Made by a program: the position numbers and the translations under genes. This document shows, piece by piece, positions 19,732 through 53,564 of a DNA stretch of 64,000 nt (its first letter is position 1; the number at the start of each line of letters is the position of its first letter). A model generated the notes under the pieces. It did no database searches and had not been told where the DNA came from. It worked only from the letters and a program-made list of their open reading frames with translations. Source of the DNA: Escherichia phage UB; the sequence record MH383160; one strand, written 5' to 3'.

Positions 19732-20013
19732 TTAAATTATTTCATAAAGACAATATACACCATCAACGCCAGCATCAGGAAAATCAACATAGAAATTCAC
19801 ACTAACAGTGTCGTAATCTATATTAGTGATTCGTCCGGTTTTACCTACACTTTTTACAAATATATCAGACCCAAGATACACAAACTCGAACTCGTCAGCA
19901 TACTCTTTTATGATATCTGCGAACCAACAACCACACCTAGGTTCTGTGTTAATAATTTCAAGATATAATGTAATATATTGTTCGTATGTCCATGTGTGTA
20001 GATAAAAATCCAT
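19732..20013 (-). CDS. hypothetical small protein
   Basis: 93 aa ORF. Confidence 0.45.
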   Translation of the reverse strand: MDFYLHTWTYEQYITLYLEIINTEPRCGCWFADIIKEYADEFEFVYLGSDIFVKSVGKTGRITNIDYDTVSVNFYVDFPDAGVDGVYCLYEII

Positions 20014-20023
20014 AGAAGTTTCC

Positions 20024-20761
20024 TTAGAAATATATCATACCCATCAATTCAGAATCGGCGGGGCGAGTGTAACCTTGCTTCTTAACTTTAAAATAGAATG
20101 ATTCATGCTCTTCTAAATTATAACGTTTTTTCAAGCAACGAGTGTATGTCTGACAATTTGGGTGAACCCATTCATAAATGTGAATGCCATTTTCGTCATA
20201 ACCATTTATACTACAACGATTTCCTTCATGCTTCATGAAGTTTTTACTTTTTTCAGTAAATTCTTTCACTGTAGTTGTATATGGAGATTTGTATTCAAAA
20301 GGAACTTCAGTCATACGAAAATAATAGTATTCTTCGTCTTCATCATATCCCAAGAGCACTGTGTTAGTTTCACGTACATTGTAATGATTCTTACTTTTTA
20401 ATTCATTTTCGTATATATCTTTCAGTACTTCTGCAAAAACTTCCTCGCTTGATGCATTAGGATTAGATACACCTGATACTCGGCGTTCAATAATAAAATC
20501 AGTGAATTTACGGTCTTCGGCAATATCTTCGTTCATATAAAGACTAACAAACTTATCCTTATATGTCTTTACACTATATTGCTTACTTTGCACTTCACTA
20601 TAAACATCTGCTAACATATTCTCCTGACCACACTGCACACCACTTACAGAATAAGCACATGCATGTTCAGCCATTACTGATGTTAACATTTGGAAATTTG
20701 CCATGTTTAATTCATTCGCCATCTCTGTAGCGAAACGGATACGGTCAAGCATTTCACACAC
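20024..20761 (-). CDS. hypothetical protein
   Basis: 245 aa ORF. Confidence 0.5.
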   Translation of the reverse strand: MCEMLDRIRFATEMANELNMANFQMLTSVMAEHACAYSVSGVQCGQENMLADVYSEVQSKQYSVKTYKDKFVSLYMNEDIAEDRKFTDFIIERRVSGVSNPNASSEEVFAEVLKDIYENELKSKNHYNVRETNTVLLGYDEDEEYYYFRMTEVPFEYKSPYTTTVKEFTEKSKNFMKHEGNRCSINGYDENGIHIYEWVHPNCQTYTRCLKKRYNLEEHESFYFKVKKQGYTRPADSELMGMIYF

Positions 20762-20810
20762 TCCTTGTGTTAATTATTGTTCCTTACCCATTATTATATC
20801 ATGAATTAAA

Positions 20811-21107
20811 CTATTGTCCCTGTTTATAGCAATAAAGATTCTCTAATTTAAAGTCCACTAGGTCACATTCAGAACGTACTCGATTCTTGTTCCAGAATAA
20901 AATACGAATCCTTTCATAATCACGATAAACACTAATAATGCTTCGGTGCTTGGATTTGTAGTACTCCTGTACTATCCCCAGATACACAGTCCTCAATAAA
21001 GACTTAGTTGGATAGGGCATATTCTGTGCTGACGTGATATTGTAAATCATCTTCATTGTTTCAGCAATAAGTACTTCATTTGTTCTCATTGTAATCCTTA
21101 CATACAC
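20811..21107 (-). CDS. hypothetical small protein
   Basis: 98 aa ORF. Confidence 0.4.
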   Translation of the reverse strand: MYVRITMRTNEVLIAETMKMIYNITSAQNMPYPTKSLLRTVYLGIVQEYYKSKHRSIISVYRDYERIRILFWNKNRVRSECDLVDFKLENLYCYKQGQ

Positions 21108-21248
21108 TATGCAAAGTAAACCCTAAACCAACACCGACAAATGGAAATAGTAAATTGATATACCAAGTATTAATTGATGAAAGGAAACAAATCCCACATA
21201 CTGTCAGTACTGCCAATGAAAAAAGACTCCAGATAAAAAATACTGTTC

Positions 21249-21539
21249 TCATAAAAATATTACCTCATCAAATGAAAAGTTTAAGTACGTTGTTGAATCT
21301 TGGTCTAAACTATGAATAGTAATATGACCATTGAAATAAAAAGAAACATCAACTATTTGAAGTTTTGGGTATTTTCTAGTACTGAAATATCTACCCACTA
21401 ACACAGCATATATATAATCCCTGTACTCTTGAGTAATGAATTCATACATATTATGATTTGCACTGCACTTTTCATCATAAGTATTAGTATATTCTTTCAT
21501 CAGTAGAGCATATGTTTTTTGTATTAATATGATATTCAT
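21249..21539 (-). CDS. hypothetical small protein
   Basis: 96 aa ORF. Confidence 0.4.
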   Translation of the reverse strand: MNIILIQKTYALLMKEYTNTYDEKCSANHNMYEFITQEYRDYIYAVLVGRYFSTRKYPKLQIVDVSFYFNGHITIHSLDQDSTTYLNFSFDEVIFL

Positions 21540-21799
21540 AAATCACCTAATACCTCAAAAATTACTGATATTGGGTATAATGGGTTACCAGTTGAAGTAA
21601 TACATACAATTAGTACGTTTTTTCCTGGTCCCACATCCGTTATAGTGAAATTAATATTATTAATATTCAGTGATTTACCAATATAATGCTCTTTCAATAA
21701 TTCAACAAAATAATCCAGTACTGGATTATCTGCACTATATGATAACTCAGTACTTGATATCATTTTATATGTATGAACTATTAGTTCAGCTTTAGTCAT
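21536..21799 (-). CDS. hypothetical small protein (K-Y-x-G-like)
   Basis: Track ORF 21536..21922 trimmed to internal Met (MTKAEL...) to avoid overlap with upstream gene; contains KEHYIGKSL. Confidence 0.35.
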   Translation of the reverse strand: MTKAELIVHTYKMISSTELSYSADNPVLDYFVELLKEHYIGKSLNINNINFTITDVGPGKNVLIVCITSTGNPLYPISVIFEVLGDL

Positions 21800-21992
21800 G
21801 AACACGCTCACAATTAAGGCAATAAATGCACTCAATGTCAGGTCGCCATGATTTATCAAAATCTTTGTGCTGTTCTTCGGTGTATTCTGCATCATCATTA
21901 ATAGGGAAGAAATCACCAGCACCAGTCGCCCAGTCTGAATCTAAACGGAAACGAGCTAATTGAGTACTGTTACAATATGGACATTTATTCAA
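21792..21992 (-). CDS. small zinc-ribbon protein
   Basis: 66 aa with CPYC near N-terminus and CIYCLNC near C-terminus. Confidence 0.45.
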   Translation of the reverse strand: MNKCPYCNSTQLARFRLDSDWATGAGDFFPINDDAEYTEEQHKDFDKSWRPDIECIYCLNCERVHD

Positions 21993-22269
21993 AATTTATT
22001 CCTTCTAACTGATATACGTTTAATGAAAATGACCCACTATTATTATCGCATCTGAAACACAGTGTTAAAGAACCATTAAAACTAACTACATCCGTACAGA
22101 TACATTTTTCACCATTGGATATGATAGATTTTCCTATATATAAATCTCTTACTATAGTACGGTAATGTTGCCATAAAAAATAATACACACTTTCATAGTA
22201 CTCATCTTTTACATATGATAAGTATAAGAATTTATAAAATACTTGTATTTCCTTTAAGTTGTTTTTCAT
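21985..22269 (-). CDS. tandem paralogue family C member
   Basis: 94 aa; N-terminal LKEIQVFYKFLYLSY resembles neighbours. Confidence 0.45.
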   Translation of the reverse strand: MKNNLKEIQVFYKFLYLSYVKDEYYESVYYFLWQHYRTIVRDLYIGKSIISNGEKCICTDVVSFNGSLTLCFRCDNNSGSFSLNVYQLEGINFE

Positions 22270-22543
22270 TCTTCAATTCCAGTAAATTTACACCAATCCA
22301 ATCAACATCACTATCAGTACTTAATTCCAATCGTAGCTTACCGCTATGACTAACAATATCGCGGAATTTGTATATTTTATTATCACGAACTATACACAAA
22401 TCATGGTAATAATCATGTAATTCATCCAAAAACTTTATCCATACCGAACGATAGATTTCACTGTAGAGATATTCTCCAGCATCAACCGTAGCGTATTGGA
22501 TATACAAAAATTTGTATGTGAATTGTATATCATTTAATAACAT
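22232..22543 (-). CDS. tandem paralogue family C member
   Basis: 103 aa; MLLNDIQFTYKFLYIQY N-terminus. Confidence 0.5.
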   Translation of the reverse strand: MLLNDIQFTYKFLYIQYATVDAGEYLYSEIYRSVWIKFLDELHDYYHDLCIVRDNKIYKFRDIVSHSGKLRLELSTDSDVDWIGVNLLELKNEKQLKGNTSIL

Positions 22544-22553
22544 ATGTAACCTC

Positions 22554-22865
22554 TTATAAATTCACCAACTTCACAACTTTAATCTCGATAAATCCCCTAT
22601 CGGTTATTTCCTGAAATTGAACATGGATTATACCATTATATGATTGCACACCATAGAAATCGAATTTATCATTTCCATCGATAAAAGTACTGTAATTCTT
22701 TTTTATATATTCACCTACTGAATCTAAGTACTCAATATATAAATCAATAAATGGTTGTTCTTTGTATCGGTTATGTGAACCTATGTTGTTACTAACAAGG
22801 TATACATCATACAAATCATATAGGATCTTATAAGTGAATTGTATATCATTTAAATTTAATCCCAA
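22554..22865 (-). CDS. tandem paralogue family C member
   Basis: 103 aa; LNLNDIQFTYKILYDLYD N-terminus. Confidence 0.5.
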   Translation of the reverse strand: MGLNLNDIQFTYKILYDLYDVYLVSNNIGSHNRYKEQPFIDLYIEYLDSVGEYIKKNYSTFIDGNDKFDFYGVQSYNGIIHVQFQEITDRGFIEIKVVKLVNL

Positions 22866-23122
22866 GGGAATATCTCCAACGGAATACTGGTAAATCCAAA
22901 ATCAGTGTAGTACTGAACCTCAACTTTACCATCACGTCTAATGATTATATCAGAAAATTCTGCATGGTCATCACCAATAATAACAGTACTGAATTTTTTT
23001 TTAATCTTACCACGAATCGTATGAATCATTTCAGTGCCTGTGTCTTCTAGACTAGGGCTATCATTGTCGTGTGCTAAATCTCGAATAATCTTGTATGTTA
23101 GTAGGAAATCTTTATAATTCAT
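22856..23122 (-). CDS. tandem paralogue family C member
   Basis: 88 aa; MNYKDFLLTYKIIRDLAHD N-terminus. Confidence 0.5.
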   Translation of the reverse strand: MNYKDFLLTYKIIRDLAHDNDSPSLEDTGTEMIHTIRGKIKKKFSTVIIGDDHAEFSDIIIRRDGKVEVQYYTDFGFTSIPLEIFPWD

Positions 23123-23394
23123 ATGTCCACCAAATCTATACTATATCTTTCATTAGTATTACTATCTATAAATGATAGTACTAATTTACCACCAAAACTA
23201 TTAACTTGTTCTATCTTCTGTTTTTTACCACGAATGATTATCTCACTATTAACAAAATATTCACGTATCATTATTAAGTGATTAATCCAGATAGTATGAG
23301 TGAATGTGTTTTCTCGTATTGTATTGAGATATCTTCCATTGTGATGTAAATCAAACAAAACACTGTATGTATATTGTAGAACTTTATAATTCAT
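23119..23394 (-). CDS. tandem paralogue family C member
   Basis: 91 aa; MNYKVLQYTYSVLFDLHH N-terminus. Confidence 0.5.
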   Translation of the reverse strand: MNYKVLQYTYSVLFDLHHNGRYLNTIRENTFTHTIWINHLIMIREYFVNSEIIIRGKKQKIEQVNSFGGKLVLSFIDSNTNERYSIDLVDI

Positions 23395-23404
23395 ATATCC
23401 CCTT

Positions 23405-23433
23405 ACAAAAATAGCCCGAACTTATGTCGGGCT
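23405..23433 (-). terminator. rho-independent terminator
   Basis: AGCCCGA-ACTTATG-TCGGGCT 7-bp stem; A-rich run 5' on plus strand (T-rich after the hairpin on minus strand); downstream of 23441..24127. Confidence 0.55.
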
Positions 23434-23440
23434 ATGTACA

Positions 23441-24127
23441 TTATTCATCGTCGTCATCGTCATCTAGATCGATATAGATACTATCATCACCATCATCAAA
23501 GTACTCCACAATAACTCCTGGAATATTAAGAGCAGTAAACATTGCATCATATTTCTCATCAGATGGAATCAAAACAAATTCATCAATGTTTTGGACTTCT
23601 GGCATTTTATCTTCGGGGATACCCATATCAACAAGTGACTGAATAATCTTTTCTTTGAATTCTAAAAACTTCTCTTCAGATTCAAAATCCATAATAAGCT
23701 GTGCAACATATCCTTCATCGTTACCGAATGAAATTGACATTTGTGCATCAGTACCGACATAGCACCAAACACGTTTGCCTGTGTGTTGCTCAATAAAGTT
23801 TTGAATCTGTAACACAATGTCATGGCGAGAACTGTTAGCAATGTTGTTAAGATTTTCTACACCAGCATTAATTCCAGTACTGTCATTTGTTTCTTCAAAT
23901 TCACCATAATCACCCAATACATACTGTACACCTTCATGATGTAATGCATATGCATAGTCAAGGTCAGCGAGTGAATCGCACTTTCCACGGATCGGACGTA
24001 GGGAAAGACCTAAGCGAAGATAACGGAAGTATGTATTAGTATTTGTATTTGTCAACGTAATGCTCCTTAACAATATAAAAGTAGTTGCTGTTATTGTCAA
24101 AAAAGATAACCATCCCTTTATAGACAT
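23441..24127 (-). CDS. hypothetical acidic protein (start uncertain)
   Basis: 228 aa track ORF; C-terminal poly-Asp (DDDDDDE); N-terminal part overlaps a short TATTTG-type repeat and may be untranslated. Confidence 0.45.
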   Translation of the reverse strand: MSIKGWLSFLTITATTFILLRSITLTNTNTNTYFRYLRLGLSLRPIRGKCDSLADLDYAYALHHEGVQYVLGDYGEFEETNDSTGINAGVENLNNIANSSRHDIVLQIQNFIEQHTGKRVWCYVGTDAQMSISFGNDEGYVAQLIMDFESEEKFLEFKEKIIQSLVDMGIPEDKMPEVQNIDEFVLIPSDEKYDAMFTALNIPGVIVEYFDDGDDSIYIDLDDDDDDE

Positions 24128-24315
24128 TTACACCAATTTTGATTTCACATATGTTATTTGATTTACTGGCTTCAGTCAATAACATTTTGTGCTCTTTACT
24201 GAAAGTGTGGAACAGTGGTTTGACATGCCACATTTCGATACCATCCAGTACTGAAAATTTATCACTAAATTTAATCATTGATTCTTGTAAAAAATATCCT
24301 GTAAGATTTATTTCA

Positions 24316-24609
24316 TCACACATGTAAGTTTCCAAGAAAATTAATCACATCTTCATGGGTTAATGTATCATTACCTTCTAGTACATTAATGATAAACGGC
24401 ACTTGACGATATAGTTCAGCCAGGAATTGAACCTCATCAGATGTGTAAGAATATCCCATAGGAACAACCTGTGCAGTCCAGTTTCCTAGAGTTTTGTTAG
24501 CAATAATTGCAACTACAGTATTACCTTTGTATTCAACATGGATGGAACGAAATCCTGATTGCTCATTTTGATCCCAAAGTACTGGATTGGTTTTGAACAG
24601 TACTGACAT
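24316..24609 (-). CDS. hypothetical small protein
   Basis: 97 aa ORF. Confidence 0.45.
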   Translation of the reverse strand: MSVLFKTNPVLWDQNEQSGFRSIHVEYKGNTVVAIIANKTLGNWTAQVVPMGYSYTSDEVQFLAELYRQVPFIINVLEGNDTLTHEDVINFLGNLHV

Positions 24610-24611
24610 AA

Positions 24612-25145
24612 TTATTTCCTCATGTATTTTATAACGTCTTCAAATAATTGTATTTTTAAGTCCTCGTCATTTCCAGGTAAAAACTCACGAAAACTATCAA
24701 AATCTTCATTTTTTGCGAAGTTACGCATTTGTGTTGAGCTATATTGACTTGATTGGCGGTCAATACCTGCTTGAATTGCTTTTATATTACAAAAATTATA
24801 CAACTTCCCATTGTAACTGTCAAGTGTTTTCTGAAAAGAATCAATACGGTCTGAACCACATATAAAAAATACATCTAAATATTTTCCATCTAATTCACGC
24901 ATTATATCAAAAAGATTATCTTCAGTATAAATGTTTTCTTGAACCGAAGGATAGAAACCCTCAGTGTAATACATCTTTAATTCAGGAGGAAGCGGGTTTT
25001 TTATATTATCAGTACTGGTGCTTAGATATATTTTCAAATCTGCATTGTACTGTTCTTGTAATGTTTTGGCCTTTTCAAAAACTAAACCATGACCATTGTG
25101 GACTGGGTTACATCTCATAAATGATAATATACATGTTTCTTTCAT
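24612..25145 (-). CDS. HxGH-motif nucleotidyltransferase (NMN/NaMN adenylyltransferase-like)
   Basis: N-terminal SFMRCNPVHNGH fits the (H/T)xGH signature of the nucleotidyltransferase alpha/beta phosphodiesterase superfamily; SSTQMR near C-terminus resembles the ISSTxxR motif. Confidence 0.55.
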   Translation of the reverse strand: MKETCILSFMRCNPVHNGHGLVFEKAKTLQEQYNADLKIYLSTSTDNIKNPLPPELKMYYTEGFYPSVQENIYTEDNLFDIMRELDGKYLDVFFICGSDRIDSFQKTLDSYNGKLYNFCNIKAIQAGIDRQSSQYSSTQMRNFAKNEDFDSFREFLPGNDEDLKIQLFEDVIKYMRK

Positions 25146-25663
25146 AAATTCTTCATCACCAATCCAAGAGATTTAAGATAATTGATTTTAGCAGTGGTTA
25201 AGTACTTATCTAGTACTATCAGACACGAAGGAAATGGTGCTGAATCTGTTTTCTTCTCTGGTTCTTCTGGGATACCAAATCGTAACCTTCCCTTAATAAA
25301 ACAAATACAATCACAAACTTTCGCAGCATAATCCTGAAAAGCTATAGTATCCGTTCTTGATGGTACAAGAATTAATACAGTTGCCCCTTTATTATACGCA
25401 TCTACTGCTTTAGATAACCATGTTTTCAAATCACTATATGGAGGGTTCAACCAAACTATATTCTTTCCCCAATCCTGTGAAAGAGAATCATCATTTGGTG
25501 TAAAATAATTCTCACATAATGCAGTCTCATCAACACAAGCAGCATCAAGCGTAAATCCCCATAACTCATCTAACTCTTCAAAGAAATCTTTTGGAGTTGT
25601 CCAGTTATCTTTACCAGTACTGAAGTGTACTGAATGTTTGTTCGAAGTATCCTTCTTCGACAT
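25142..25663 (-). CDS. phage Dam-type DNA N6-adenine methyltransferase
   Basis: Motif IV NPPY (WLNPPYSD) and upstream FTLDAAC block typical of small phage N6A methyltransferases; 173 aa. Confidence 0.65.
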   Translation of the reverse strand: MSKKDTSNKHSVHFSTGKDNWTTPKDFFEELDELWGFTLDAACVDETALCENYFTPNDDSLSQDWGKNIVWLNPPYSDLKTWLSKAVDAYNKGATVLILVPSRTDTIAFQDYAAKVCDCICFIKGRLRFGIPEEPEKKTDSAPFPSCLIVLDKYLTTAKINYLKSLGLVMKNL

Positions 25664-25679
25664 GTTATAAATCCTTTTG

Positions 25680-26300
25680 TTATAGACAGTTCTGTACTAT
25701 CTTATCAAAAGTACTACTGTCAATGTTATATTCATACAAAAATTTAAAATGTGAACCATAACGCATCATCAGATTAAACTCTTCTTCAGTATTAAATTTG
25801 TAATCATGAAGAGTTTCAGGGGTACATGTTAAACCTAAAAACTCAATTATTTCAGATGTTACATCATTTCCTGAATTGAAGTATTTAACCCAAACACATT
25901 TTCCTTGTGGGTTGTATTTTCTATATTCTCCTTCTAGTTCTCCTTTTATAATATGAGCCTTAACACTTATTAAATTATTACTATATCTTTCCTCGAAATA
26001 ATTACCATACTGTGCTTTTAATATTGTTGGTTTTTGTGTAGGAAGTAATTTGACTGAAGTAACTTCAATGCCGTTCTGTAATTCCTTTATGTACGAAATG
26101 CATCCTTTTTCTTTAATAACAACAAATCCTGTAAAGTTATCTTCATCTTGTAATTGGTTTTCACAATCAACAAAATCCAAAGTCTTATAGGTAAAAGTTT
26201 TTTGTTTTCTAATAAATGCCATCATTATTCCTATGGAAACATCAATGAATATACGTGACGTTGATTTCATCAACATCAGTAGAATTACCATGCTACGCAT
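25680..26300 (-). CDS. hypothetical protein
   Basis: 206 aa ORF; start uncertain. Confidence 0.5.
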   Translation of the reverse strand: MRSMVILLMLMKSTSRIFIDVSIGIMMAFIRKQKTFTYKTLDFVDCENQLQDEDNFTGFVVIKEKGCISYIKELQNGIEVTSVKLLPTQKPTILKAQYGNYFEERYSNNLISVKAHIIKGELEGEYRKYNPQGKCVWVKYFNSGNDVTSEIIEFLGLTCTPETLHDYKFNTEEEFNLMMRYGSHFKFLYEYNIDSSTFDKIVQNCL

Positions 26301-26840
26301 GTCTAATTCTACAAGTACTATTTTCTTTTAATTAATATTGACGGGGTTTGCTTGAGCATATTTCATCCCCCCGCAGGGGAAAGAACAAAAAAGTTTGACG
26401 CTGGTGGCCTTCACATAGTTCATATCACGAATTCTCTTACGAGACGAAAGCGGGTTGCTCTGTTTCTCTCTATCGCGGTTCTTGTAGCAACGGTCGTCGG
26501 TCTTAAACATCCCGACACATAATACAAATACCATATGACCAGTACTTGTATTTGATTTCACAAAATTTGGACGCAACTATATTGTATAATTCCGACCGCA
26601 TATTTCTTATGAAATCTCCCTTAGATAATTGGTAAGGTGCGATCCTTATATGTCTATCGAGGAACTCTCTTTATCCTATTGGAGTTCTTTATACAGCCGC
26701 ATTGCCGTGAGTGGTTCAAACTATGCCATCATCTAACGGGTTTCATCTGCTGTTCGTACTGAAAGGACTACTCATCTACCCTCTACATTTTCGAGTGGAT
26801 TAGGCTTTTAATCATTTCCTCATAGGAACCTTTCAGGATT
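26301..26840. other. GC-richer non-coding island (candidate structured RNA or regulatory region)
   Basis: About 540 bp without a convincing ORF; visibly higher GC than surroundings (runs such as CCCCCCGCAGGGG, GGTCGTCGGTC); flanked by terminator at 26841-26874. Confidence 0.35.
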
Positions 26841-26874
26841 AAAAAAAAGGTGACAACAACATCTGCTGTCACCT
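26841..26874 (-). terminator. rho-independent terminator
   Basis: GGTGACA..loop..TGTCACC 7-bp stem with A8 run on plus strand 5' side (T8 after hairpin on minus strand); immediately downstream of 26904..27758. Confidence 0.7.
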
Positions 26875-26903
26875 TACATTATATCATTAACTTATTCTTT
26901 GTC

Positions 26904-27758
26904 TCAGTTATATTCTGTTTTTTCAGTAAAATTTGTCAGTATATCAACGCTTACGCATCTAATAATTTCAATCTTACTTGGCATTAAACGGTGTTTATTT
27001 TTAACGTACAATTCATCATCTTCAATAAAAGACGTAAAAATGAATGCCATATCTTCACGTGGAATTTGTAAAATATCACACATTTCATTTGCCGATGCTA
27101 CTGGTGAATCATTGTAATACTTAGAGTATGCATTGGATTGGCGACCGATTATAATAGAATTTCTGATTAGAAAATTACTACAGTACTGAAAATCTTTGTA
27201 GTACTTTTCAATAATGTACGGCATAAGTGCTTCTTTCACGTCTTCATACCCATTAGTACTATCAATTGCTATACAGTAATCTTCACGTTCTTTTTTCTCA
27301 TGATGGTAATCATAAACATACTCAAAGAATGAATTTTTATTTAATGAATCATTTAAACCAACTGATCCACTATAGTATGATTTTCTATCATTCAATCGAT
27401 CATCTGGGCATGATGCATACATAGAAGTGTCATGTGATGATGTACCAATATAAATTTTCTTAGTAATATGATTATATGCTATGTAATCATAATCTTGAAC
27501 TCCAGTTAGCATTAACTGGAACATTAAATCATCAGGAACATCAATTAACGGGTACTCAAACTTCGAATATCTACTGCGGCAGAAGTTCTTTTCAAATGCT
27601 CGGTATGTGATAAAATCTTTTAGATTTTTACAAGATTCATGTTCATGAGCACTACTGATACGTACATTGACATTAGTCGATGTGCAATATCCATCCGAAT
27701 CTTCGGTGAAGTTACCAGCATAATCCTTATTGTAGTCAACGATTAGATAAAGTTTCAT
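26904..27758 (-). CDS. hypothetical protein
   Basis: 284 aa ORF; contains PDDLMFQLML, a degenerate family A-like motif. Confidence 0.55.
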   Translation of the reverse strand: MKLYLIVDYNKDYAGNFTEDSDGYCTSTNVNVRISSAHEHESCKNLKDFITYRAFEKNFCRSRYSKFEYPLIDVPDDLMFQLMLTGVQDYDYIAYNHITKKIYIGTSSHDTSMYASCPDDRLNDRKSYYSGSVGLNDSLNKNSFFEYVYDYHHEKKEREDYCIAIDSTNGYEDVKEALMPYIIEKYYKDFQYCSNFLIRNSIIIGRQSNAYSKYYNDSPVASANEMCDILQIPREDMAFIFTSFIEDDELYVKNKHRLMPSKIEIIRCVSVDILTNFTEKTEYN

Positions 27759-27770
27759 ACATCTCCAGAC

Positions 27771-27802
27771 AAAAAAAAAGGACGAGATAACAAATCCCGT
27801 CC
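27771..27802 (-). terminator. rho-independent terminator
   Basis: A9 run then GGACG..CGTCC hairpin on plus strand, i.e. hairpin followed by T9 on minus strand; downstream of 27812..28117. Confidence 0.65.
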
Positions 27803-27811
27803 TTTGGTTTA

Positions 27812-28117
27812 TTAGTGACTTGCCCAGCAGTAAACAGGACGTAGATTTTCCATTGGATTTACTTCAGGCTTCAGTACTGTTACACGTACTTCATATGGAG
27901 TTCCATCTGCATGATGGAATGTTTCATAATGAATACTTTCAATAAATGTTTCGTATTCTTCTTGTGAACGTGAACGTACTGCTGATGAATATTTCTTCTT
28001 AGAATCTGCTTTAAGTGTAACACTGACTAGTTCTGATTCCTCACCTTCTTCAAGTTTGTTGAAATCGAACTCTGGTACACCTTCAAACATATCAAATTTC
28101 ATTCCATTGTCTTCCAT
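27812..28117 (-). CDS. hypothetical small protein
   Basis: 101 aa ORF. Confidence 0.5.
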   Translation of the reverse strand: MEDNGMKFDMFEGVPEFDFNKLEEGEESELVSVTLKADSKKKYSSAVRSRSQEEYETFIESIHYETFHHADGTPYEVRVTVLKPEVNPMENLRPVYCWASH

Positions 28118-28166
28118 TTTTAAATTCCTTTTATATAATGTTAATTAGATATTTTTAATAAGCAGA

Positions 28167-28553
28167 TTAGATTGTGTCATACTGTAGTGTTCCGTGACGG
28201 AATTTTTCAAGTCGTGCTAGGACTTCTTTTCGTTCGACAATTTCTGGAACATCTTCTTGTAGTTGATCACAAACTTCAACAATGAAGTCCCAATCACTCT
28301 CACAACTTTGTCGTACCGCCTCAATTGTTTTCCAATCAGTACTGATATCACCATCAGCATTTTGATATACAGGCCAAACTTTTCCATAATCAGCAATGGA
28401 TTTGTCATTTAGAATACGAATGGCATTGAAAATCTGACCAGTACTGAAGTGTTTTGTATTCTTCATATCTTCTAAACAGCATAGCTTTGGTTCACCTTTT
28501 ACTTCAATGAGTAAAACACCACCAATTGCTTTTAGGATTGAACTTGTATTCAT
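28167..28553 (-). CDS. hypothetical protein
   Basis: 128 aa ORF. Confidence 0.5.
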   Translation of the reverse strand: MNTSSILKAIGGVLLIEVKGEPKLCCLEDMKNTKHFSTGQIFNAIRILNDKSIADYGKVWPVYQNADGDISTDWKTIEAVRQSCESDWDFIVEVCDQLQEDVPEIVERKEVLARLEKFRHGTLQYDTI

Positions 28554-28577
28554 CTATATCTCCGTTATCAAAAAAAG

Positions 28578-28616
28578 ATGTGAACATTATATCACAAGAA
28601 TCTAATATGTTCACAT
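28578..28616 (-). terminator. perfect 10-bp inverted repeat (terminator or operator)
   Basis: ATGTGAACAT ... ATGTTCACAT separated by about 19 nt; A7 run on plus strand 5' side; downstream of 28625..28918. Confidence 0.45.
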
Positions 28617-28624
28617 TATTTTCA

Positions 28625-28918
28625 TTAGATTTTAATAATATTGTACCAGTTATCAAAATCCTCAATTGCTAGAATGAACATATTTTCATCATTGAAATCT
28701 AAAATATGTTCATTGTATAGGTAACTAATGTACTTGTTTTTGCATAGTCTAGCATTCATTAGTAACATTTCTACTGCACGTTCATAAGAACAAGGAACAA
28801 GGTATAACTTTGTACCATCTTGGTGAATAATTTCCTCAGCACCATGTGGTATAAAACGTTCTGCTGTATGTGGAATATACGGCTTAGTTTTAAAAATAAT
28901 TTTGAATTTAGTATCCAT
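28625..28918 (-). CDS. hypothetical small protein
   Basis: 97 aa ORF. Confidence 0.45.
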   Translation of the reverse strand: MDTKFKIIFKTKPYIPHTAERFIPHGAEEIIHQDGTKLYLVPCSYERAVEMLLMNARLCKNKYISYLYNEHILDFNDENMFILAIEDFDNWYNIIKI

Positions 28919-28934
28919 ACCAAATCCTCCAGAT

Positions 28935-29789
28935 TTATAATGTTTCTTTTATGTTATGTAACATAGTATTAACTATGCACATCTTACCACCTAACTTGTA
29001 GTAATATTCTAACTTATTAATAATATTACTTTTTAATATATCAAATATTTGATATTCATTTGGATCGAAACTAAGTTCGAATTGGAATGTATATAAATTG
29101 TTAAAGATGTGAACTAATGATGCATCTGGTGATTCCATTGTAACTGTATATTTTTCACGATAACCAGTACTAATCACTACTTCGGATATATCACCTTTCA
29201 TGTATATGTCAATATTGTACATCATTGGTCTGCCTGTGGCAATATCTTTCATGCGAAAGAATGCAGTGCTACGATATACAATGCCTTCTGAAACCTGTTC
29301 TTGTATAGTGATATTTGAAACTTCACTCTCTTGGAATTTGGACTCGAATGAATGAGTGTAATTTGTTTTTTCATTATCCGTGTGCATAGTACATGTGTAT
29401 TTTCCAAAATCATCTCTAGATGTATATGATTTATCACTGCTAGTTTTATAGAACGAAACACCATTGATATGTTGTTCTTTATACATCATCGTGTCATGTG
29501 ATTTGTAGTATGAACAATTAGGTGTTGCAAGAGATTCAAACTTGTTCACATCATGACAGTAAGAAATAGAAGAATCGCTATACATTACTACATCACGAAT
29601 TGCAACTTCTTTTGTAAAACCTTTTTTGACGGAAATTTGAAAGTCATTGTATGGGAAGATTGTATATCCATCGTATGCATCTGATGTACTGATACCAAAT
29701 GGTGTAGTAGAATTCAGAAATTCGTTGATATGTTCAAGTACTGAATACTTTTTAAAATTAAGAAAATCTGAAATGTCTAACATATACAA
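28935..29789 (-). CDS. hypothetical protein
   Basis: 284 aa; track start is a non-ATG codon, probable ATG start about 6 nt downstream preceded by GAGGA RBS. Confidence 0.55.
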   Translation of the reverse strand: MYMLDISDFLNFKKYSVLEHINEFLNSTTPFGISTSDAYDGYTIFPYNDFQISVKKGFTKEVAIRDVVMYSDSSISYCHDVNKFESLATPNCSYYKSHDTMMYKEQHINGVSFYKTSSDKSYTSRDDFGKYTCTMHTDNEKTNYTHSFESKFQESEVSNITIQEQVSEGIVYRSTAFFRMKDIATGRPMMYNIDIYMKGDISEVVISTGYREKYTVTMESPDASLVHIFNNLYTFQFELSFDPNEYQIFDILKSNIINKLEYYYKLGGKMCIVNTMLHNIKETL

Positions 29790-29814
29790 TCCTCATAAAT
29801 TTAGACAAAAAATT

Positions 29815-29835
29815 AGTCGAGAATAAATCTCGACT
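29815..29835. terminator. hairpin, possible bidirectional terminator
   Basis: AGTCGAGA-ATAAA-TCTCGACT 8-bp stem flanked by A-run upstream and T-rich run downstream. Confidence 0.45.
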
Positions 29836-29946
29836 TGTGTTTTACTTTACCATTTTTCATTTCTTTTTTACGATCCACATGTGTCTGTGGCTTGTTAAAC
29901 TCATTCATGTGTTTCTGTACGAAATTGTTTACTTTCTTAGCCATAC

Positions 29947-30420
29947 TTACTCCAAACTGGGATCTTTAACTGTTAGACTTTCTATGTCACTCGCATAAAG
30001 AACTACATTGGATTGATTTTCAGATACTTTAAAGTCGTGATAACTGTCTTTTACAATAAAATTATCTAATATAAACCCTTTACTACAGCACATCATAATT
30101 TTATCATCTTTGATTGTGTAGGTGTTTTTCTTTTTACGTACTTCAGATTGTGGCGTAATACTATCGTTATTACGAATAACACAATCAATATATTGTTCAT
30201 TTGTACTCATAGGCATACCCATGATAAACGAGTTTTCAGTACTGATTGTTAGTATAAAAACGTTAGTATTTGGGTTGTGAAAAAAATCATGCATTGTCTT
30301 GCTACACAAAAATAGACATTGAATAATGTCCTTCACATTAAACATTATATCATGAACTTTGAATGCGTCCAACTCTAAAATGTCATCAATTTTCCCATTT
30401 TCAACAGTTTTAATCTCCAT
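29947..30420 (-). CDS. hypothetical protein (array, no clear motif)
   Basis: 157 aa ORF; ATG start confirmed by reverse-complement reading (MEIKTV). Confidence 0.5.
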   Translation of the reverse strand: MEIKTVENGKIDDILELDAFKVHDIMFNVKDIIQCLFLCSKTMHDFFHNPNTNVFILTISTENSFIMGMPMSTNEQYIDCVIRNNDSITPQSEVRKKKNTYTIKDDKIMMCCSKGFILDNFIVKDSYHDFKVSENQSNVVLYASDIESLTVKDPSLE

Positions 30421-30462
30421 GATCTATCCTTGATCTTCTAATGCACTCCATGTGCGTTTTTA

Positions 30463-30960
30463 TTAAGTCACTGCATTATACTTCTCTATAGCATTAGTAA
30501 TATTTAATATAGCTTCAGGAACCATTTCTTTATTGTATTCACGTTTTAAATTTTCCATTTTCTTAATAATTTCCAAGAAAAATGGCAAAATACATGAAGT
30601 ATCTGTAAAATTACATGAGTACAAAGTACTCATTTGAAATAATTCACCTGAATCAATATTAAGAGTATTGTATTCCTTAACAATGTTTTCGTTTGAATTG
30701 AAAATGTGAAATACTGTTCCCATGTGATGAAGATATACACCATTCTCATTTTGAATATTGCATGGTGTGATTACAATAGCAGTGTTGTCAATATTATTTA
30801 CTATTGATAAACGCAGACTATGTAAACCAAAAATAACAGTGCAATCACTTGAACTGCTTTGAATTTGGTCAGCAGTTTGTGTAACACTTGTAATATTTTC
30901 TCCATCAAGACAACTCTTGATTTTATCAAATGAATTTTTCATTGATTTAGTTAGATACAT
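30463..30960 (-). CDS. family A protein
   Basis: 165 aa; motif GELFQMSTLY. Confidence 0.55.
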   Translation of the reverse strand: MYLTKSMKNSFDKIKSCLDGENITSVTQTADQIQSSSSDCTVIFGLHSLRLSIVNNIDNTAIVITPCNIQNENGVYLHHMGTVFHIFNSNENIVKEYNTLNIDSGELFQMSTLYSCNFTDTSCILPFFLEIIKKMENLKREYNKEMVPEAILNITNAIEKYNAVT

Positions 30961-31364
30961 TTATGAACACCTTCGAAATATTTGATTAATGATTTTATCA
31001 TATCGCTACTAATGCCATGTAAGTCAACACCTAAACACTCGTATTGAAAAAAATCAATATCCTCCAGCGTGTTTAGATCAATTTCCACCTTATCATGACC
31101 CAACGAATTCATAATAACGTTTTTATCATTAATTGTCAAGAAAGTTTTATTACTTGAACCTAAAAAGATTTTAACATGTTTATTTGGCATTGCATCATAA
31201 GACAACGATTGTGAACCATAAATGTATGTACCTTCCATCGAACCAGTATCTATAAAGTATAGACGAATCCCTTTATGGTATTTTGACTCCTTAGTGATCG
31301 CCTCTATTAGTTCATCTGTGGTTGTTAACCTTGTTTCTTTCTTCTCTAAATTGCTCAAATGCAT
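30951..31364 (-). CDS. family A protein (variant motif)
   Basis: 137 aa; DIDFFQYECLG. Confidence 0.5.
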   Translation of the reverse strand: MHLSNLEKKETRLTTTDELIEAITKESKYHKGIRLYFIDTGSMEGTYIYGSQSLSYDAMPNKHVKIFLGSSNKTFLTINDKNVIMNSLGHDKVEIDLNTLEDIDFFQYECLGVDLHGISSDMIKSLIKYFEGVHKCI

Positions 31365-31785
31365 AAAATAATACCTTGATCATTTGTAATGTTTCCGACA
31401 TTACATCAGCAGAAAATTGAACATCAGTGTATTTTACCATAGTACTTTGAGTAAAGAAAGTAGCTTCAATATCTTCAAGGTCAAATGGCTCATCAAATAA
31501 ATTAGTACTGAACATATCAGTTTTTTTCTTATAAGTCAACATAAACTTAGCACTGTATCTCAATACAATTTCATCTTTACTTACTAAAATTCGTGCAATG
31601 TTCTGTCTACCCAGTGTTGTAATGTTAACATTAAACGTATTCTTTCGTGCCTCAACAATATCAACGAAATAACCATCACCTTGGTAAACGTTATGACGAA
31701 CTTCTAATCCTTGTTGAACTGTATTGAACAGTGCGTCCTGGATAAAATAATTTGCAGTATCGATGTTTCCTAAAATATCTAACAT
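31312..31785 (-). CDS. family A protein (variant motif)
   Basis: 157 aa; ATFFTQSTMV. Confidence 0.45.
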   Translation of the reverse strand: MLDILGNIDTANYFIQDALFNTVQQGLEVRHNVYQGDGYFVDIVEARKNTFNVNITTLGRQNIARILVSKDEIVLRYSAKFMLTYKKKTDMFSTNLFDEPFDLEDIEATFFTQSTMVKYTDVQFSADVMSETLQMIKVLFYAFEQFREERNKVNNHR

Positions 31786-32315
31786 AACTTCTCCTTTATA
31801 GCTGTCATATTTAGAAGAAATTCAGTAAGCAATTCCTCCGTAACATGCTCTGTATACCAGAATATCACAATATCTTTTGAAAGTCGTGTATTCATAAAAA
31901 TATCTACTAACTCTTTGTAGTACTCTAGCGTTTCGAGATTTGTGAGAATTAACGAGTACTGAAAGAGTAATTCTTCCGTTAGATTAAATTCTGGATAAAG
32001 TAAATCATTGAACTCATGTGATGCAGTTTGAACTTTAATTTCTTTGAAGTTATTGGTTATACAACCGGAATAAATATTTCGGTGCAACTCTCTGTACAAC
32101 GCAGCATAATCTATGAATTTTGCTTTAGGGTTAAAATCAAGAACACTTTCACCTTTATATGACAATCGGTGGAACGCCGAGAACATAGTCACTTCCCACG
32201 GTTGCTTAATATCTAGCTCAGTAATATCAATATTATTGGACAGAAGAACCGTAAAAATCTCACCAATCTTTAATAGTAACTTAGTACGTGCTAGTACTGT
32301 CATAGGTTCAATCAT
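31779..32315 (-). CDS. family A protein
   Basis: 178 aa; EELLFQYSLIL. Confidence 0.55.
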   Translation of the reverse strand: MIEPMTVLARTKLLLKIGEIFTVLLSNNIDITELDIKQPWEVTMFSAFHRLSYKGESVLDFNPKAKFIDYAALYRELHRNIYSGCITNNFKEIKVQTASHEFNDLLYPEFNLTEELLFQYSLILTNLETLEYYKELVDIFMNTRLSKDIVIFWYTEHVTEELLTEFLLNMTAIKEKLC

Positions 32316-32728
32316 TATACACCTTCATATTCATCAAGGAAATCTTCGATGATCATTTCAGCTTCATCCATATGCATCGCATCAACTTCAATAATACGAA
32401 TTTTAGATGTATCCCAAATCATAAAGCTAGGAACATTGTCTGGCTCGTAATCATTTTTGTACTGAACAGCATCATAACCTTGAGCCGTGCAATTCTCAAT
32501 AAGTGAACGCCACTCATCATCACTGCCTAAATCTTCACACAGAAGCACGTTATCAACATCAACTTCTAAGGTATGCAAGTATACTGTACATGCGTCAACA
32601 ACGTTTAGTGGGCTTCTCAGCTTGCGTAAGGCAGCTTCCAAAGCACTGTGTTTACCTCCCATATGAAGTCCACCATACGGGATATAAAAGTTATCAATTT
32701 TTACAGTACTCGCATGATACAGTTTCAT
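32315..32728 (-). CDS. hypothetical protein (array, no motif)
   Basis: 137 aa ORF. Confidence 0.5.
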   Translation of the reverse strand: MKLYHASTVKIDNFYIPYGGLHMGGKHSALEAALRKLRSPLNVVDACTVYLHTLEVDVDNVLLCEDLGSDDEWRSLIENCTAQGYDAVQYKNDYEPDNVPSFMIWDTSKIRIIEVDAMHMDEAEMIIEDFLDEYEGV

Positions 32729-32737
32729 ATTTCATTC

Positions 32738-33322
32738 CTATTTCAGTACTTTAGTCAATGCTTTCACAGCGGTTTCGAGTTGAGCATAGTCGTTAATTGT
32801 AAGGTAATGAATACCATGTGCATTCATTTCAGCATCTATTTTACTATATAAATCAAACATGTCAAGGATATGATTGTATGCATATGAAGTATTTGAAACA
32901 CACAATTCTTGGAACAAACGTTCTTCCAAGTCATTCACAACTTCACCATGAATGTCAAGTACTACACCATCTTTGTAAGTATAGTATTCTTCACTCCACT
33001 CTTCAGAAAGTCGGAACAGTAACGGATTCCCGCCGAACACTTCCATGTCATAGGAATTTATCTCACTAAGTAGTGTTTCACCTGGTTCTGGTGTGAAGTC
33101 GAAATATGCGAGTGTTGAACCATCATAGTCCTTGAGTGATATACCAGTATGATTTAAGCTTACTTCACCATAATTATTATTCTTGAACTTAATTTTGATA
33201 TTAATCTCAATGTATTTTATTGTCTCATCATCACTGAAATTGTAATCAATTTTATACTTTTCCCAAAGAAGTTTGATATCTTTGAAGTACTTTAATTTAC
33301 TTTCAATTTCTTTAAAGTCCAT
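32738..33322 (-). CDS. family A protein
   Basis: 194 aa; EERLFQELCV. Confidence 0.55.
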   Translation of the reverse strand: MDFKEIESKLKYFKDIKLLWEKYKIDYNFSDDETIKYIEINIKIKFKNNNYGEVSLNHTGISLKDYDGSTLAYFDFTPEPGETLLSEINSYDMEVFGGNPLLFRLSEEWSEEYYTYKDGVVLDIHGEVVNDLEERLFQELCVSNTSYAYNHILDMFDLYSKIDAEMNAHGIHYLTINDYAQLETAVKALTKVLK

Positions 33323-34462: not shown

Positions 34463-34523
34463 AAAATTCTCCTTGAGAACAATGTATCATACAAAAAAAC
34501 CAGAGTCAACCCCTGGTACAAAT

Positions 34524-49417: not shown

Positions 49418-49614
49418 CTTAATCTCTACTATAATTAATAAGGTAAACTCCAATATAAGGAGCACGTTGCGGGGGCGGGGTATTTTTTGTTTCAGGAAAC
49501 ATGAACTGTACTCTGAAAAACACAATATAAAACTTTATATTAAACATATACCTTAGCATGTTTTTCAGCGGAAATTTTTTTGACCCCCCTGCGGCCTGTA
49601 AAAATGAAACGTCT

Positions 49615-53512: not shown

Positions 53513-53564
53513 GATAACAGCTTTGGTCTTCTATGTCAATACCAAAACGAAAAAAGCCCATATC

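What the first reader, a model, noticed from the sequence alone, without database searches (positions are those of the whole stretch)
24612..25663. Adjacent HxGH nucleotidyltransferase and Dam-type N6-adenine methyltransferase
An NMNAT-like nucleotidyltransferase (SFMRCNPVHNGH) sits immediately upstream of and overlapping a phage Dam-family methyltransferase (NPPY). This suggests NAD-salvage or nucleotide-modifying activity coupled with DNA methylation as anti-restriction. It is worth asking whether the methyltransferase targets GATC or another site, given the AGTACT enrichment.
Basis: partly seen in the sequence, partly recalled or inferred. Interest (0 to 1): 0.45.

Follow-up and report, generated by a model that had tools for sequence, protein, structure and literature searches.

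The report
Annotated methylase and nucleotidyltransferase gene pair
Two neighbouring genes of a known giant E. coli phage encode a small DNA adenine methylase and a nucleotide-transferring enzyme of unknown substrate; both are already annotated in public records and nothing indicates that they work together.

Summary
Both ORFs are real and lie on the minus strand. The methyltransferase (25142..25663, 173 aa, NPPY) comes first. The HxGH nucleotidyltransferase (24612..25145, 177 aa) follows, with a 4-nt ATGA overlap. The window is 99.8% identical to Escherichia phage vB_EcoM_E9.1, a jumbo phage related to PBECO4/121Q, where both genes are already annotated as 'DNA methyltransferase' and 'cytidyltransferase'.

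The methyltransferase is a clear Pfam Dam (PF05869) member. The transferase belongs to the HIGH/ISSTxxR superfamily. By fold and profile it is closest to adenylyltransferases (PPAT, NMNAT), not cytidylyltransferases. It is the jumbo-phage version of the uncharacterised cyanophage 'cytitidyltransferase' family.

Functional coupling is not supported:
- The pair sits in a collinear six-gene block conserved in four host genera.
- 0 of 80 distant viral loci with a transferase homologue have a Dam gene nearby.
- In relatives, another gene is inserted between the two, or the transferase is missing.
- Overlapping junctions are the norm in this window.

No NAMPT, NadR or PnuC partner is annotated anywhere in the genome. 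The methylase target remains unknown.

By-product: AGTACT is enriched about 8-fold (1030 sites per genome) and GCGC is absent (0 against about 200-320 expected). Both traits are conserved in this lineage. One methylase-clade relative sits in a genome with neither bias.

The parts
25142..25663 (-). Orphan PF05869 (phage Dam family) N6-adenine DNA methyltransferase, 173 aa; first gene of the pair
   Evidence: ORF. Pfam PF05869 E 5.9e-32, 111.1 bits against cut-off 28.1. phrog_111 6e-57. TIGR01712 scores 93.1 against cut-off 97.05. 2419 homologues, all PF05869. 100% identical to E9.1 XDC03394.1 'DNA methyltransferase'.
25436..25447 (-). Catalytic motif IV, NPPY (residues 73-76)
   Evidence: Read (reverse complement AAC CCT CCA TAT). 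N73, P75 and Y76 are invariant in 31 homologues.
24612..25145 (-). HIGH-superfamily nucleotidyltransferase (phage 'cytitidyltransferase' family), 177 aa; second gene of the pair
25089..25100 (-). HxGH motif (H16-N-G-H19), the nucleotide-binding signature
   Evidence: Read (CAC AAT GGT CAT). H16, G18 and H19 are invariant in close homologues. H19 is invariant across the wider family.
24723..24743 (-). YSSTQMR, the ISxTxxR-type second signature motif of the superfamily
   Evidence: Read. S136 and R141 are invariant across 20 diverse homologues. Aligns with PPAT 'ISSSIVR' and MJ0951 'ISGTKIR'.
25142..25145 (-). ATGA stop/start overlap between the two genes
   Evidence: This is the common junction type here: 27 of 134 same-strand junctions in the window.
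25680..26300 (-). Upstream neighbour in the same unit (206 aa, phrog_16210, function unknown); part of the conserved syntenic block
24316..24609 (-). Downstream neighbour (97 aa, phrog_14956, function unknown); part of the conserved syntenic block
23441..24127 (-). Second downstream neighbour (228 aa, acidic C-terminus, function unknown); part of the conserved syntenic block
26847..26875 (-). Terminator-like hairpin with a T-run, upstream boundary of the putative transcription unit
   Evidence: 13 pairs, T-run.
23411..23435 (-). Terminator-like hairpin with a T-run, downstream boundary of the putative transcription unit
   Evidence: 9 pairs, T-run.

Best explanation
These are two independent accessory genes that happen to be neighbours in one co-transcribed, conserved block of a RaK2/PBECO4-type jumbo phage.

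(1) The 173-aa protein is an orphan N6-adenine methyltransferase of the phage Dam family (PF05869), with no nuclease partner. It has intact catalytic (NPPY) and cofactor-binding motifs and no separate target-recognition domain. By inference it uses S-adenosylmethionine to methylate adenines in a short sequence of the replicating phage DNA. That would protect the DNA from host restriction or mismatch-repair nucleases. Its target is unknown. GATC is the family default.

(2) The 177-aa protein is a HIGH-motif (HxGH ... SSTxxR) nucleotidyltransferase of the widespread, uncharacterised phage 'cytitidyltransferase' family. By fold and profile it resembles adenylyltransferases (PPAT, NMNAT). By inference it transfers AMP from ATP onto the phosphate of a small phosphorylated acceptor, releasing pyrophosphate. 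The acceptor is unknown.

Shown here: the family memberships, the motifs, the fold, the synteny and the lack of conserved linkage. Inferred: enzymatic activity, substrates and biological role.
For: Identity and prior annotation.

Methyltransferase:
- Pfam, PHROG and NCBIfam hits.
- 2419 homologues, all PF05869.
- Invariant D40, N73-P-P-Y76, G125-R126, A142-P-F-P-S146.
- Neighbouring genes have no Pfam family and only function-unknown PHROGs, so no nuclease partner was found.

Transferase:
- Both signature motifs are conserved.
- Confident model.
- Foldseek best hits are PPAT, NadD and NMNAT1.
- The family profile aligns full-length to PPAT, including KNPL against KNPMF.
- The family is large (3685 representatives) and holds the cyanophage genes (558 phage records). 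One cyanophage paper calls the function 'unclear' (PMC9146016).

No coupling:
- 0 of 80 distant loci have a Dam gene nearby.
- The six-gene block is collinear in relatives.
- A gene is inserted between the two in L098, and the transferase is absent in L096 and L097.
- Overlapping junctions are the norm.
- Terminator-like hairpins bound a five-gene unit.
Against: - The pair stays adjacent and tightly spaced down to 38-43% protein identity (Erwinia phage Kaldavass). It contains the two best-conserved genes of the block in the Salmonella and Erwinia relatives (in Klebsiella RCIP0023 the second downstream gene is conserved as well), so some selective linkage cannot be excluded.
- No biochemical data exist for either protein.
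- The methylase clade has a loop insertion after GRLxF and a C-terminal extension of about 25 aa that typical family members lack. Only the catalytic core aligns with the Stx-phage and T1-like Dams, at 31-36% identity. The GATC default may therefore not apply.
- The absence of NAD-salvage partners rests on annotation of one near-identical genome, not on sensitive searches of every ORF.
Confidence: 0.62

Rival explanations
1. The transferase is an NMN (or NaMN) adenylyltransferase. It rebuilds NAD+ during infection, for example to counter NAD+-depleting defence systems.
For: - Weak NCBIfam hits point to NadD/NadR models.
- The GSDRxxxF segment resembles the GxD segment of NadD/NMNAT enzymes (my knowledge of those families; sequence).
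- Related jumbo phages CBB and GAP32 are reported to carry NMNAT-like genes, NAMPT and PnuC (PMC5259590).
- Phage NAD+ reconstitution pathways are established (NARP2, NARP3).
- The phage encodes NAD-consuming Sir2 and Nudix genes about 25 kb away.
Against: - All NMNAT equivalog models are far below cut-off: 19 bits against 112-150.
- No conserved tryptophan of the kind that stacks on the pyridine ring in NMNATs (my knowledge) appears among the invariant positions.
- No NAMPT, NadR-type kinase or PnuC is annotated in the E9.1 genome.
- The family's distant members sit in multidomain proteins, one of which was detected in a cyanophage virion proteome, not in NAD gene clusters.
Confidence: 0.2
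2. The methyltransferase targets the hyper-abundant AGTACT (or its GTAC core) rather than GATC, so the phage genome is densely marked at about 1000 sites.
For: - AGTACT is the most over-represented hexamer of the genome: 1030 against 124-200 expected, z 58.7.
- Sites occur in all three coding frames.
- The bias is present in seven of nine loci that carry this methylase clade, at 9- to 14-fold.
- The clade has a specific loop insertion and a C-terminal extension.
- GATC is under-represented: 698 against 1160-1271.
Against: - All enriched loci belong to one syntenic lineage, so the association cannot be separated from common descent.
- L095 carries a clade member (46% identical, with the same insertion and extension) in a genome with no AGTACT excess (5 against 4.0) and normal GCGC.
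- L097 shows only a 2.5-fold excess.
- Characterised family members (T1, HP1 and Stx-phage Dams) methylate GATC (my knowledge).
- A methylation target does not by itself explain why the site is enriched.
Confidence: 0.12
3. The two proteins form one functional module, for example a two-step DNA base modification, or methylation coupled to nucleotide-cofactor supply, used for anti-restriction.
For: - Adjacent, co-oriented and overlapping.
- Adjacency is kept in four host genera, down to 38% identity and in L094.
Against: - 0 of 80 distant loci link the two families.
- A 253-aa gene separates them in L098, and the transferase is missing in L096 and L097 while the methylase stays.
- The flanking genes are just as collinear.
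- The overlap type is the commonest junction in the window.
Confidence: 0.06
4. The methyltransferase acts on RNA (for example tRNA or mRNA adenines) rather than DNA.
For: - The nearest solved fold is the cap-specific mRNA m6Am methyltransferase PCIF1/CAPAM: TM 0.66-0.70, E 6e-6. KsgA and RlmJ rRNA adenine methylases follow.
- RNA repair genes (Rnl1, Pnk) lie 8-13 kb downstream in the same gene orientation.
Against: - No PF05869 structure has been solved, so the nearest fold is only the best available proxy.
- Characterised PF05869 members are DNA Dam enzymes (my knowledge).
- Pfam and TIGR01712 place the protein with the phage DNA methylases.
Confidence: 0.04

Closest known systems
Phage Dam-family N6-adenine methyltransferases (Pfam PF05869 / TIGR01712), e.g. 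Dams of Stx2-converting phages and T1-like phages
   Same: - Same Pfam family, well above threshold.
- Same size class (135-175 aa).
- NPPY and GR(L/I)xF motifs.
- Orphan, with no adjacent nuclease.

   Different: - Only 31-36% identical, over the catalytic core.
- Just under the TIGR01712 equivalog cut-off: 93.1 against 97.05.
- The jumbo-phage clade has a 6-10-residue insertion after GRLxF and a C-terminal extension of about 25 residues.
- Target sequence untested.
Cyanomyovirus 'cytitidyltransferase' / phrog_3041 and phrog_395 family
   Same: Homologous HIGH nucleotidyltransferase domain with the motifs GRxNPxH/TxGH, KNPL, GSDR, YNGxxYxF and SSTxMR.
   Different: - Here the domain is a stand-alone 177-aa protein.
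- In most distant relatives it is part of proteins of 375-1130 aa, with DUF5824, P-loop kinase, Hint or ATP-grasp-like regions.
- 30-37% identity.
- Function unknown in both.
Phosphopantetheine adenylyltransferase (PPAT/CoaD)
   Same: - Full-length alignment.
- Comparable size (157-165 aa in PPAT).
- T/HxGH, KNP(L/M) and SSxxxR motifs align.

   Different: - 13-18% identity.
- No CoaD model hit in NCBIfam at E <= 0.1.
- PPAT's RGLR segment is replaced by GSDR.
- A C-terminal helical extension is present.
- No CoA pathway context.
NMN/NaMN adenylyltransferases (NadD, NadM, NadR, archaeal NMNAT) and the phage NAD+ reconstitution pathways NARP2 and NARP3
   Different: - Far below all equivalog cut-offs.
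- No NAMPT partner (NARP2), and no PnuC or ribosylnicotinamide kinase domain (NARP3; PMC13464706), is annotated in the genome.

Membership tests
Pfam PF05869 Dam (phage N6-adenine DNA methyltransferase) | Profile score above the curated gathering threshold | tested here: met
   111.1 bits against 28.1, E 5.9e-32, covering profile positions 7-149 of 169.
Pfam PF05869 Dam (phage N6-adenine DNA methyltransferase) | Catalytic (D/N)PP(Y/F) motif and conserved cofactor-binding and GRxxF motifs | tested here: met
   NPPY at residues 73-76. D40, G125-R126 and APFPS 142-146 are invariant in 31 homologues.
NCBIfam TIGR01712 phage_N6A_met (equivalog) | Score above the equivalog cut-off | tested here: not met
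   93.1 bits against cut-off 97.05, a marginal miss.
Dam-type methyltransferase in the functional sense (GATC-specific m6A) | Methylation of adenine in GATC | not testable with these tools
   No methylome data found for these phages. Identity to GATC-specific relatives is only 31-36%.
Type II restriction-modification system | Cognate restriction endonuclease encoded next to the methyltransferase | tested here: not met
   The flanking ORFs have no Pfam family and only function-unknown PHROGs. All neighbours are annotated as hypothetical.
HIGH (HxGH) nucleotidyltransferase superfamily / Pfam PF01467 CTP_transf_like | Pfam gathering threshold | tested here: not met
   15.9 bits against 21 for this protein. 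Homologues of the same family reach 27-32 bits.
HIGH (HxGH) nucleotidyltransferase superfamily / Pfam PF01467 CTP_transf_like | H/TxGH motif near the N-terminus and ISxTxxR-type motif near the C-terminus | tested here: met
   H16-N-G-H19 and Y-S-S-T-Q-M-R141. H19, S136 and R141 are invariant across 20 diverse members.
HIGH (HxGH) nucleotidyltransferase superfamily / Pfam PF01467 CTP_transf_like | Rossmann-like nucleotidyltransferase fold | tested here: met
   [not shown]
NMN adenylyltransferase (NadD / NadR / NadM / archaeal NMNAT) | Score above equivalog model cut-offs | tested here: not met
   NF000840 scores 19.2 against 150. TIGR00482 scores 18.7 against 112. No TIGR01526 hit for this protein.
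Phage NAD+ reconstitution pathways NARP2 (Nampt + Nmnat) and NARP3 (PnuC + NadR-like) | Partner gene (NAMPT; or PnuC transporter plus ribosylnicotinamide kinase domain) in the same genome or cluster | tested here: not met
   None is annotated in any of the 736 features of the 99.8%-identical E9.1 genome. This test is annotation-based only. Pathway definitions come from PMC13464706.
NMN adenylyltransferase | NMN- or NaMN-dependent NAD(+) or NaAD formation | not testable with these tools
   Requires an enzyme assay.
Glycerol-3-phosphate / choline-phosphate cytidylyltransferases (source of the 'cytidyltransferase' label) | Closest structural and profile similarity to CTP-using members | tested here: not met
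   [not shown]
Phosphopantetheine adenylyltransferase (CoaD) | Equivalog-level sequence match | tested here: not met
   No CoaD model is listed at E <= 0.1. The profile-to-PDB match to PPAT reaches only E 1.8e-4, 24.6 bits.

The most novel reading that the evidence does not exclude
The jumbo-phage clade of the small Dam-family methylase, with its loop insertion and C-terminal extension, has changed specificity. It would methylate the roughly 1000 AGTACT sites that this lineage has accumulated. Together with the total avoidance of GCGC, this would form a genome-wide system for telling phage DNA from host DNA. The neighbouring adenylyltransferase would have no part in it.
Probability: 0.1. Interest if true: 0.6.

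Novelty: already known. Interest (0 to 1): 0.17.

Why it matters
As stated, the finding adds little. Both genes are already annotated with the same family names in more than 30 public genomes of this phage group, and the proposed functional coupling is not supported.

Two things of wider interest came out of the check.

1. The 'cytidyltransferase' label is probably a misnomer. The protein is closer to adenylyltransferases. Its family is very large (thousands of sequence clusters, including genes annotated in hundreds of cyanomyovirus records) and still has no known substrate. A single enzyme assay would therefore inform many annotations.
2. RaK2/PBECO4-type jumbo phages show an extreme, conserved sequence bias: AGTACT about 8-fold enriched and GCGC completely absent. 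I found no description of this in the searchable literature. It calls for a methylome and a search for the protein that reads these sites.

Tried and rejected
- **Direct sequence search of both proteins against PDB chains.** Nothing useful.
- **Word-indexed homologue search for the transferase.** It reached only close relatives; the exhaustive profile search was needed.
- **NCBIfam equivalog models.** No NMNAT, PPAT or GCT assignment.
- **Literature.** No methylome of PBECO4-type (Asteriusvirus) or RaK2-like phages was found, and nothing on AGTACT in jumbo phages. The RaK2 paper mentions restriction and bisulfite data only as 'not shown'. 'cytitidyltransferase' gives no hits. The PF05869 papers say nothing about specificity.
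- **Whole-genome annotation of E9.1 for NAD-salvage partners.** None found.
- **Paralogues in the E9.1 genome.** One copy each of the transferase and the Dam-family methylase.
- **AGTACT as a translated peptide repeat or promoter element.** Rejected. Sites lie in all three frames (74/57/41), only 10 of 184 are intergenic, and the flanks carry almost no information beyond a weak C...G.
- **AGTACT bias linked to the transferase.** Rejected. None of the 80 distant loci with a homologue is enriched (maximum 1.8-fold), and L096 is enriched without the transferase.
- **Translational coupling as evidence of function.** Rejected. Overlaps are the norm in this window.
- **Predicting methylase specificity from solved relatives.** Not possible. 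The nearest fold is an RNA cap methylase.
Full report
**What is there.** The interval 24612..25663 is filled by two minus-strand ORFs.
- The 5' gene (25142..25663, 173 aa) carries NPPY at residues 73-76.
- The 3' gene (24612..25145, 177 aa) begins MKETCILSFMRCNPVHNGH.
- They overlap by the four bases ATGA.

**Source of the window.** The segment 24000-26400 is 99.8% identical to Escherichia phage vB_EcoM_E9.1 (368 kb). It is 93% identical to PBECO4, 121Q, phAPEC6 and other members of the same jumbo-phage group (the genus Asteriusvirus in the literature), with 34 matching phage records. In those records the two genes are already named 'DNA methyltransferase'/'methylase'/'DNA N-6-adenine-methyltransferase' and 'cytidyltransferase'/'putative cytitidyltransferase'. 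Both proteins are 100% identical to the E9.1 products.

**The methyltransferase.**
- Pfam Dam PF05869 matches at E 5.9e-32: 111 bits against a threshold of 28. phrog_111 matches at 6e-57.
- NCBIfam TIGR01712 'phage N-6-adenine-methyltransferase' scores 93.1, just under its equivalog cut-off of 97.05.
- 2419 homologues were found, all PF05869 and mostly 135-175 aa.
- In an alignment of 31 of them, D40, N73-P-P-Y76, G125-R126 and APFPS142-146 are invariant. The enzyme therefore looks active.
- The flanking genes show no nuclease or any Pfam family, so it is an orphan methylase.
- Against phage genomes it is 36% identical to the Dam of Stx2-converting phages and 31-33% to Dams of T1-like phages, over the catalytic core only.
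- The jumbo-phage clade differs from typical members by a 6-10-residue insertion after GRLxF and a C-terminal extension of about 25 residues.
- No family member has a solved structure. The AlphaFold model (pLDDT 82.6) is closest to the cap-specific mRNA adenosine methylase PCIF1/CAPAM, TM 0.66-0.70.
- Specificity cannot be read from sequence, and no methylome for this phage group was found in the literature. The RaK2 paper reports, as data not shown, that RaK2 DNA behaves as methylated (PMC3622015).

**The nucleotidyltransferase.**
- Pfam CTP_transf_like is below threshold (15.9 against 21 bits). phrog_3041 (1e-55) and phrog_395 (3e-23), both labelled 'cytidyltransferase', match strongly.
- Close homologues keep H16, G18 and H19 (HxGH) and S136, S137 and R141 (YSSTxMR) invariant. 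Across 20 diverse members P14, H19, N50, R100, N112, S136 and R141 are invariant. These are the two signature motifs of the HIGH nucleotidyltransferase superfamily.
- The AlphaFold model is confident (pLDDT 89.6).
- Foldseek against the PDB puts PPAT/CoaD first (E 3.5e-6, TM 0.62-0.67), with NadD and human NMNAT1 close behind.
- A family profile aligns full-length with PPAT (E 1.8e-4), including the family's KNPL motif against PPAT's KNPMF.
- All NMNAT/NadD/NadR equivalog models are far below their cut-offs.

The protein is therefore best described as an adenylyltransferase-like enzyme of the PPAT/NMNAT branch with an unknown acceptor.

**The transferase family.** An exhaustive profile search finds 3685 representative proteins, 2426 of them below 1e-10. 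In phage genomes 558 records match, mostly cyanomyoviruses (375 Synechococcus, 59 'Cyanophage', 22 Prochlorococcus). This is the long-annotated but uncharacterised cyanophage 'cytitidyltransferase'.
- In 80 distant viral contigs the domain sits mostly inside proteins of 375-1130 aa.
- Among ten long (317-1224 aa) relatives from the profile search, fusion partners include DUF5824, Zeta-toxin/AAA_33 P-loop kinase domains and a Hint domain.
- In cyanophage S-SZBM1 a 362-aa 'cytidylyltransferase' was detected in the virion proteome, and the authors state that its function is unclear (PMC9146016). I did not verify that this protein is the one matched.

**Are the two genes coupled?** The evidence says no.
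1. None of the 80 distant loci with a transferase homologue encodes a PF05869-like protein within 6 kb.
2. The pair is adjacent in Klebsiella phage RCIP0023, Salmonella phage 7t3 and Erwinia phage Kaldavass. But so is the whole block of six genes (two upstream, the pair, two downstream), which is collinear in all of them. The adjacency reflects general synteny of the lineage.
3. In metagenomic relatives carrying the same methylase clade the pair can be broken. L098 has a 253-aa gene (DUF723/CapR hits) inserted between the two. L096 and L097 keep the methylase and, in L096, the downstream RNA-ligase/PNK synteny, but lack the transferase. L094 keeps the pair.
4. The ATGA overlap is the commonest junction type here: 75 of 134 same-strand junctions overlap, and 27 of those overlap by 4 nt.

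The two genes are probably co-transcribed. Terminator-like hairpins on the minus strand at 26875-26847 and 23435-23411 bracket a five-gene unit.

**NAD salvage.** I read the annotation of the complete E9.1 genome, 736 features. No NAMPT, NadR-type enzyme, PnuC or other NMNAT is annotated.
- The only NAD-related entries are a Sir2-type deacetylase and an adjacent Nudix hydrolase about 25 kb from the pair, just outside the window, plus two further Nudix genes.
- The known phage NAD+ reconstitution pathways need such partners. NARP2 converts nicotinamide to NAD+ via NMN. NARP3 is a PnuC-like transporter plus a NadR-like bifunctional enzyme (PMC13464706).
- A lone NMNAT remains possible but is not favoured.
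- The genome has a single copy of each of the two genes.

- In the window there are 184 AGTACT sites against about 21 expected. They lie in all three coding frames (74/57/41), and only 10 are intergenic.
- The flanks add little, only a weak extension to CAGTACTG.
- In the E9.1 genome there are 1030 sites against 124 (base composition) or 200 (order-2 model), z 58.7, the top hexamer. Density is highest in the terminal regions.
- GATC is under-represented: 698 against 1160-1271.
- GCGC is entirely absent: 0 against 317 or 198 expected.
- Both the AGTACT excess (9- to 14-fold) and the GCGC absence recur in RCIP0023, 7t3, Kaldavass, L094, L096 and L098. They do not occur in a cyanophage locus, and none of the 80 distant loci shows an AGTACT excess.
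- All the enriched loci carry the methylase clade, but they also share hundreds of other genes.
- Two cases argue against a simple link. L095 carries a 46%-identical clade member with the same insertion and extension, in a different type of phage. It shows no AGTACT excess (5 against 4.0) and normal GCGC (27 against 24). L097 shows only a 2.5-fold excess.
- The bias is independent of the transferase, since L096 is enriched without it.

The target of the methylase remains open. I give the AGTACT reading about 10-12%.

**Verdict.** However, both genes are already annotated in public genomes, the proposed NAD-salvage role lacks support, and the proposed coupling with methylation is contradicted by comparative data. 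Interest in the finding as stated is low. The AGTACT/GCGC composition bias of this phage lineage and the unknown substrate of the large 'cytitidyltransferase' family are the points worth passing on.

Noticed in passing
whole window (184 sites; e.g. 24578, 24599, 25011, 25201, 25212, 25616); E9.1 genome loci L093, L086, L001, L087-L092: AGTACT is about 8-fold over-represented: 184 against 21 in the window, and 1030 against 124-200 in the 368-kb genome (z 58.7, the top hexamer). Sites lie in all three coding frames, and the flanks carry almost no information beyond a weak CAGTACTG. The bias is conserved at 9- to 14-fold in Klebsiella, Salmonella and Erwinia relatives and in three metagenomic contigs. 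It is absent from cyanophage and from 80 distant viral loci. No description was found in the searchable literature.
   Followed up: partly
whole window; E9.1 genome; L082-L084, L094, L096-L098: GCGC is completely absent: 0 in the window against about 19-43 expected, and 0 in the 368-kb genome against 198-317. It is also absent in all related loci examined. Several GC-containing 6-bp palindromes (CTGCAG, GGTACC, GCATGC, CCATGG, CAGCTG) occur 0-2 times in the genome. This suggests strong selection, for example against a GCGC-specific nuclease of host or phage origin.
   Followed up: partly
window 49297-57013 and 60896-64000: Two stretches contain no AGTACT at all, 7.7 kb and at least 3.1 kb long, in a genome that otherwise has one site every 150-600 bp. 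They contain only small hypothetical genes. The same gaps appear in E9.1 (record 27196-34904 and 19971-24751). Comparing gap positions suggests the window carries about 1.4 kb more than E9.1 somewhere between window 57 and 61 kb.
   Followed up: partly
window 24795-24823, minus strand: A perfect 12/12 sigma-70 consensus (TTGACA, 17 nt, TATAAT) lies inside the nucleotidyltransferase ORF, oriented to drive the downstream genes. Overall, promoter-like sites are not more frequent than in shuffled sequence (29 against 24.6).
   Followed up: no
window 26300-26850: About 550 bp have no convincing gene, lying between a strong terminator-like hairpin (26847-26875) and the first gene of the unit. The E9.1 record annotates only four ORFs of about 30 codons on the opposite strand there. 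This could be a regulatory region.
   Followed up: no
L098:10528-11289; L096:10544-10897; L097:10497-11225: In related metagenomic contigs the methylase-transferase pair is broken. A 253-aa gene with DUF723/CapR hits is inserted between them in L098. The transferase is missing from the syntenic position in L096 and L097.
   Followed up: yes
L087:4454-5754 (E9.1 record 84670-85970, just beyond window position 1): The phage encodes a Sir2-type NAD-dependent deacetylase directly followed by a Nudix hydrolase, that is, NAD-consuming or ADP-ribose-processing enzymes. No NAD-synthesis genes are annotated.
   Followed up: no
proteins P0150-P0290; loci L002-L081: The transferase domain is mostly found fused into viral proteins of 375-1130 aa. 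In the long relatives scanned against Pfam, the partners include DUF5824, Zeta-toxin/AAA_33 P-loop kinase domains and a Hint domain. One locus product (L045) appears to carry an ATP-grasp-like region, judged by eye only. The pairing of a nucleotidyltransferase with a P-loop kinase recalls CoA synthase, NadR and PAPS synthase.
   Followed up: partly
window 25142-25663 (model m5600fcc61241): The nearest solved structure to the predicted fold of this small Dam-family methylase is the eukaryotic cap-specific mRNA m6Am methyltransferase PCIF1/CAPAM (TM 0.66-0.70), ahead of any DNA methylase. No PF05869 member has a solved structure.
   Followed up: no
L092:1-12360 and L091:48246-50000 (E9.1 record about 328.5-342.6 kb): A tandem array of more than a dozen paralogous genes of about 380 aa, annotated 'regulator of chromosome condensation' (RCC1-like), lies outside the window.
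   Followed up: no
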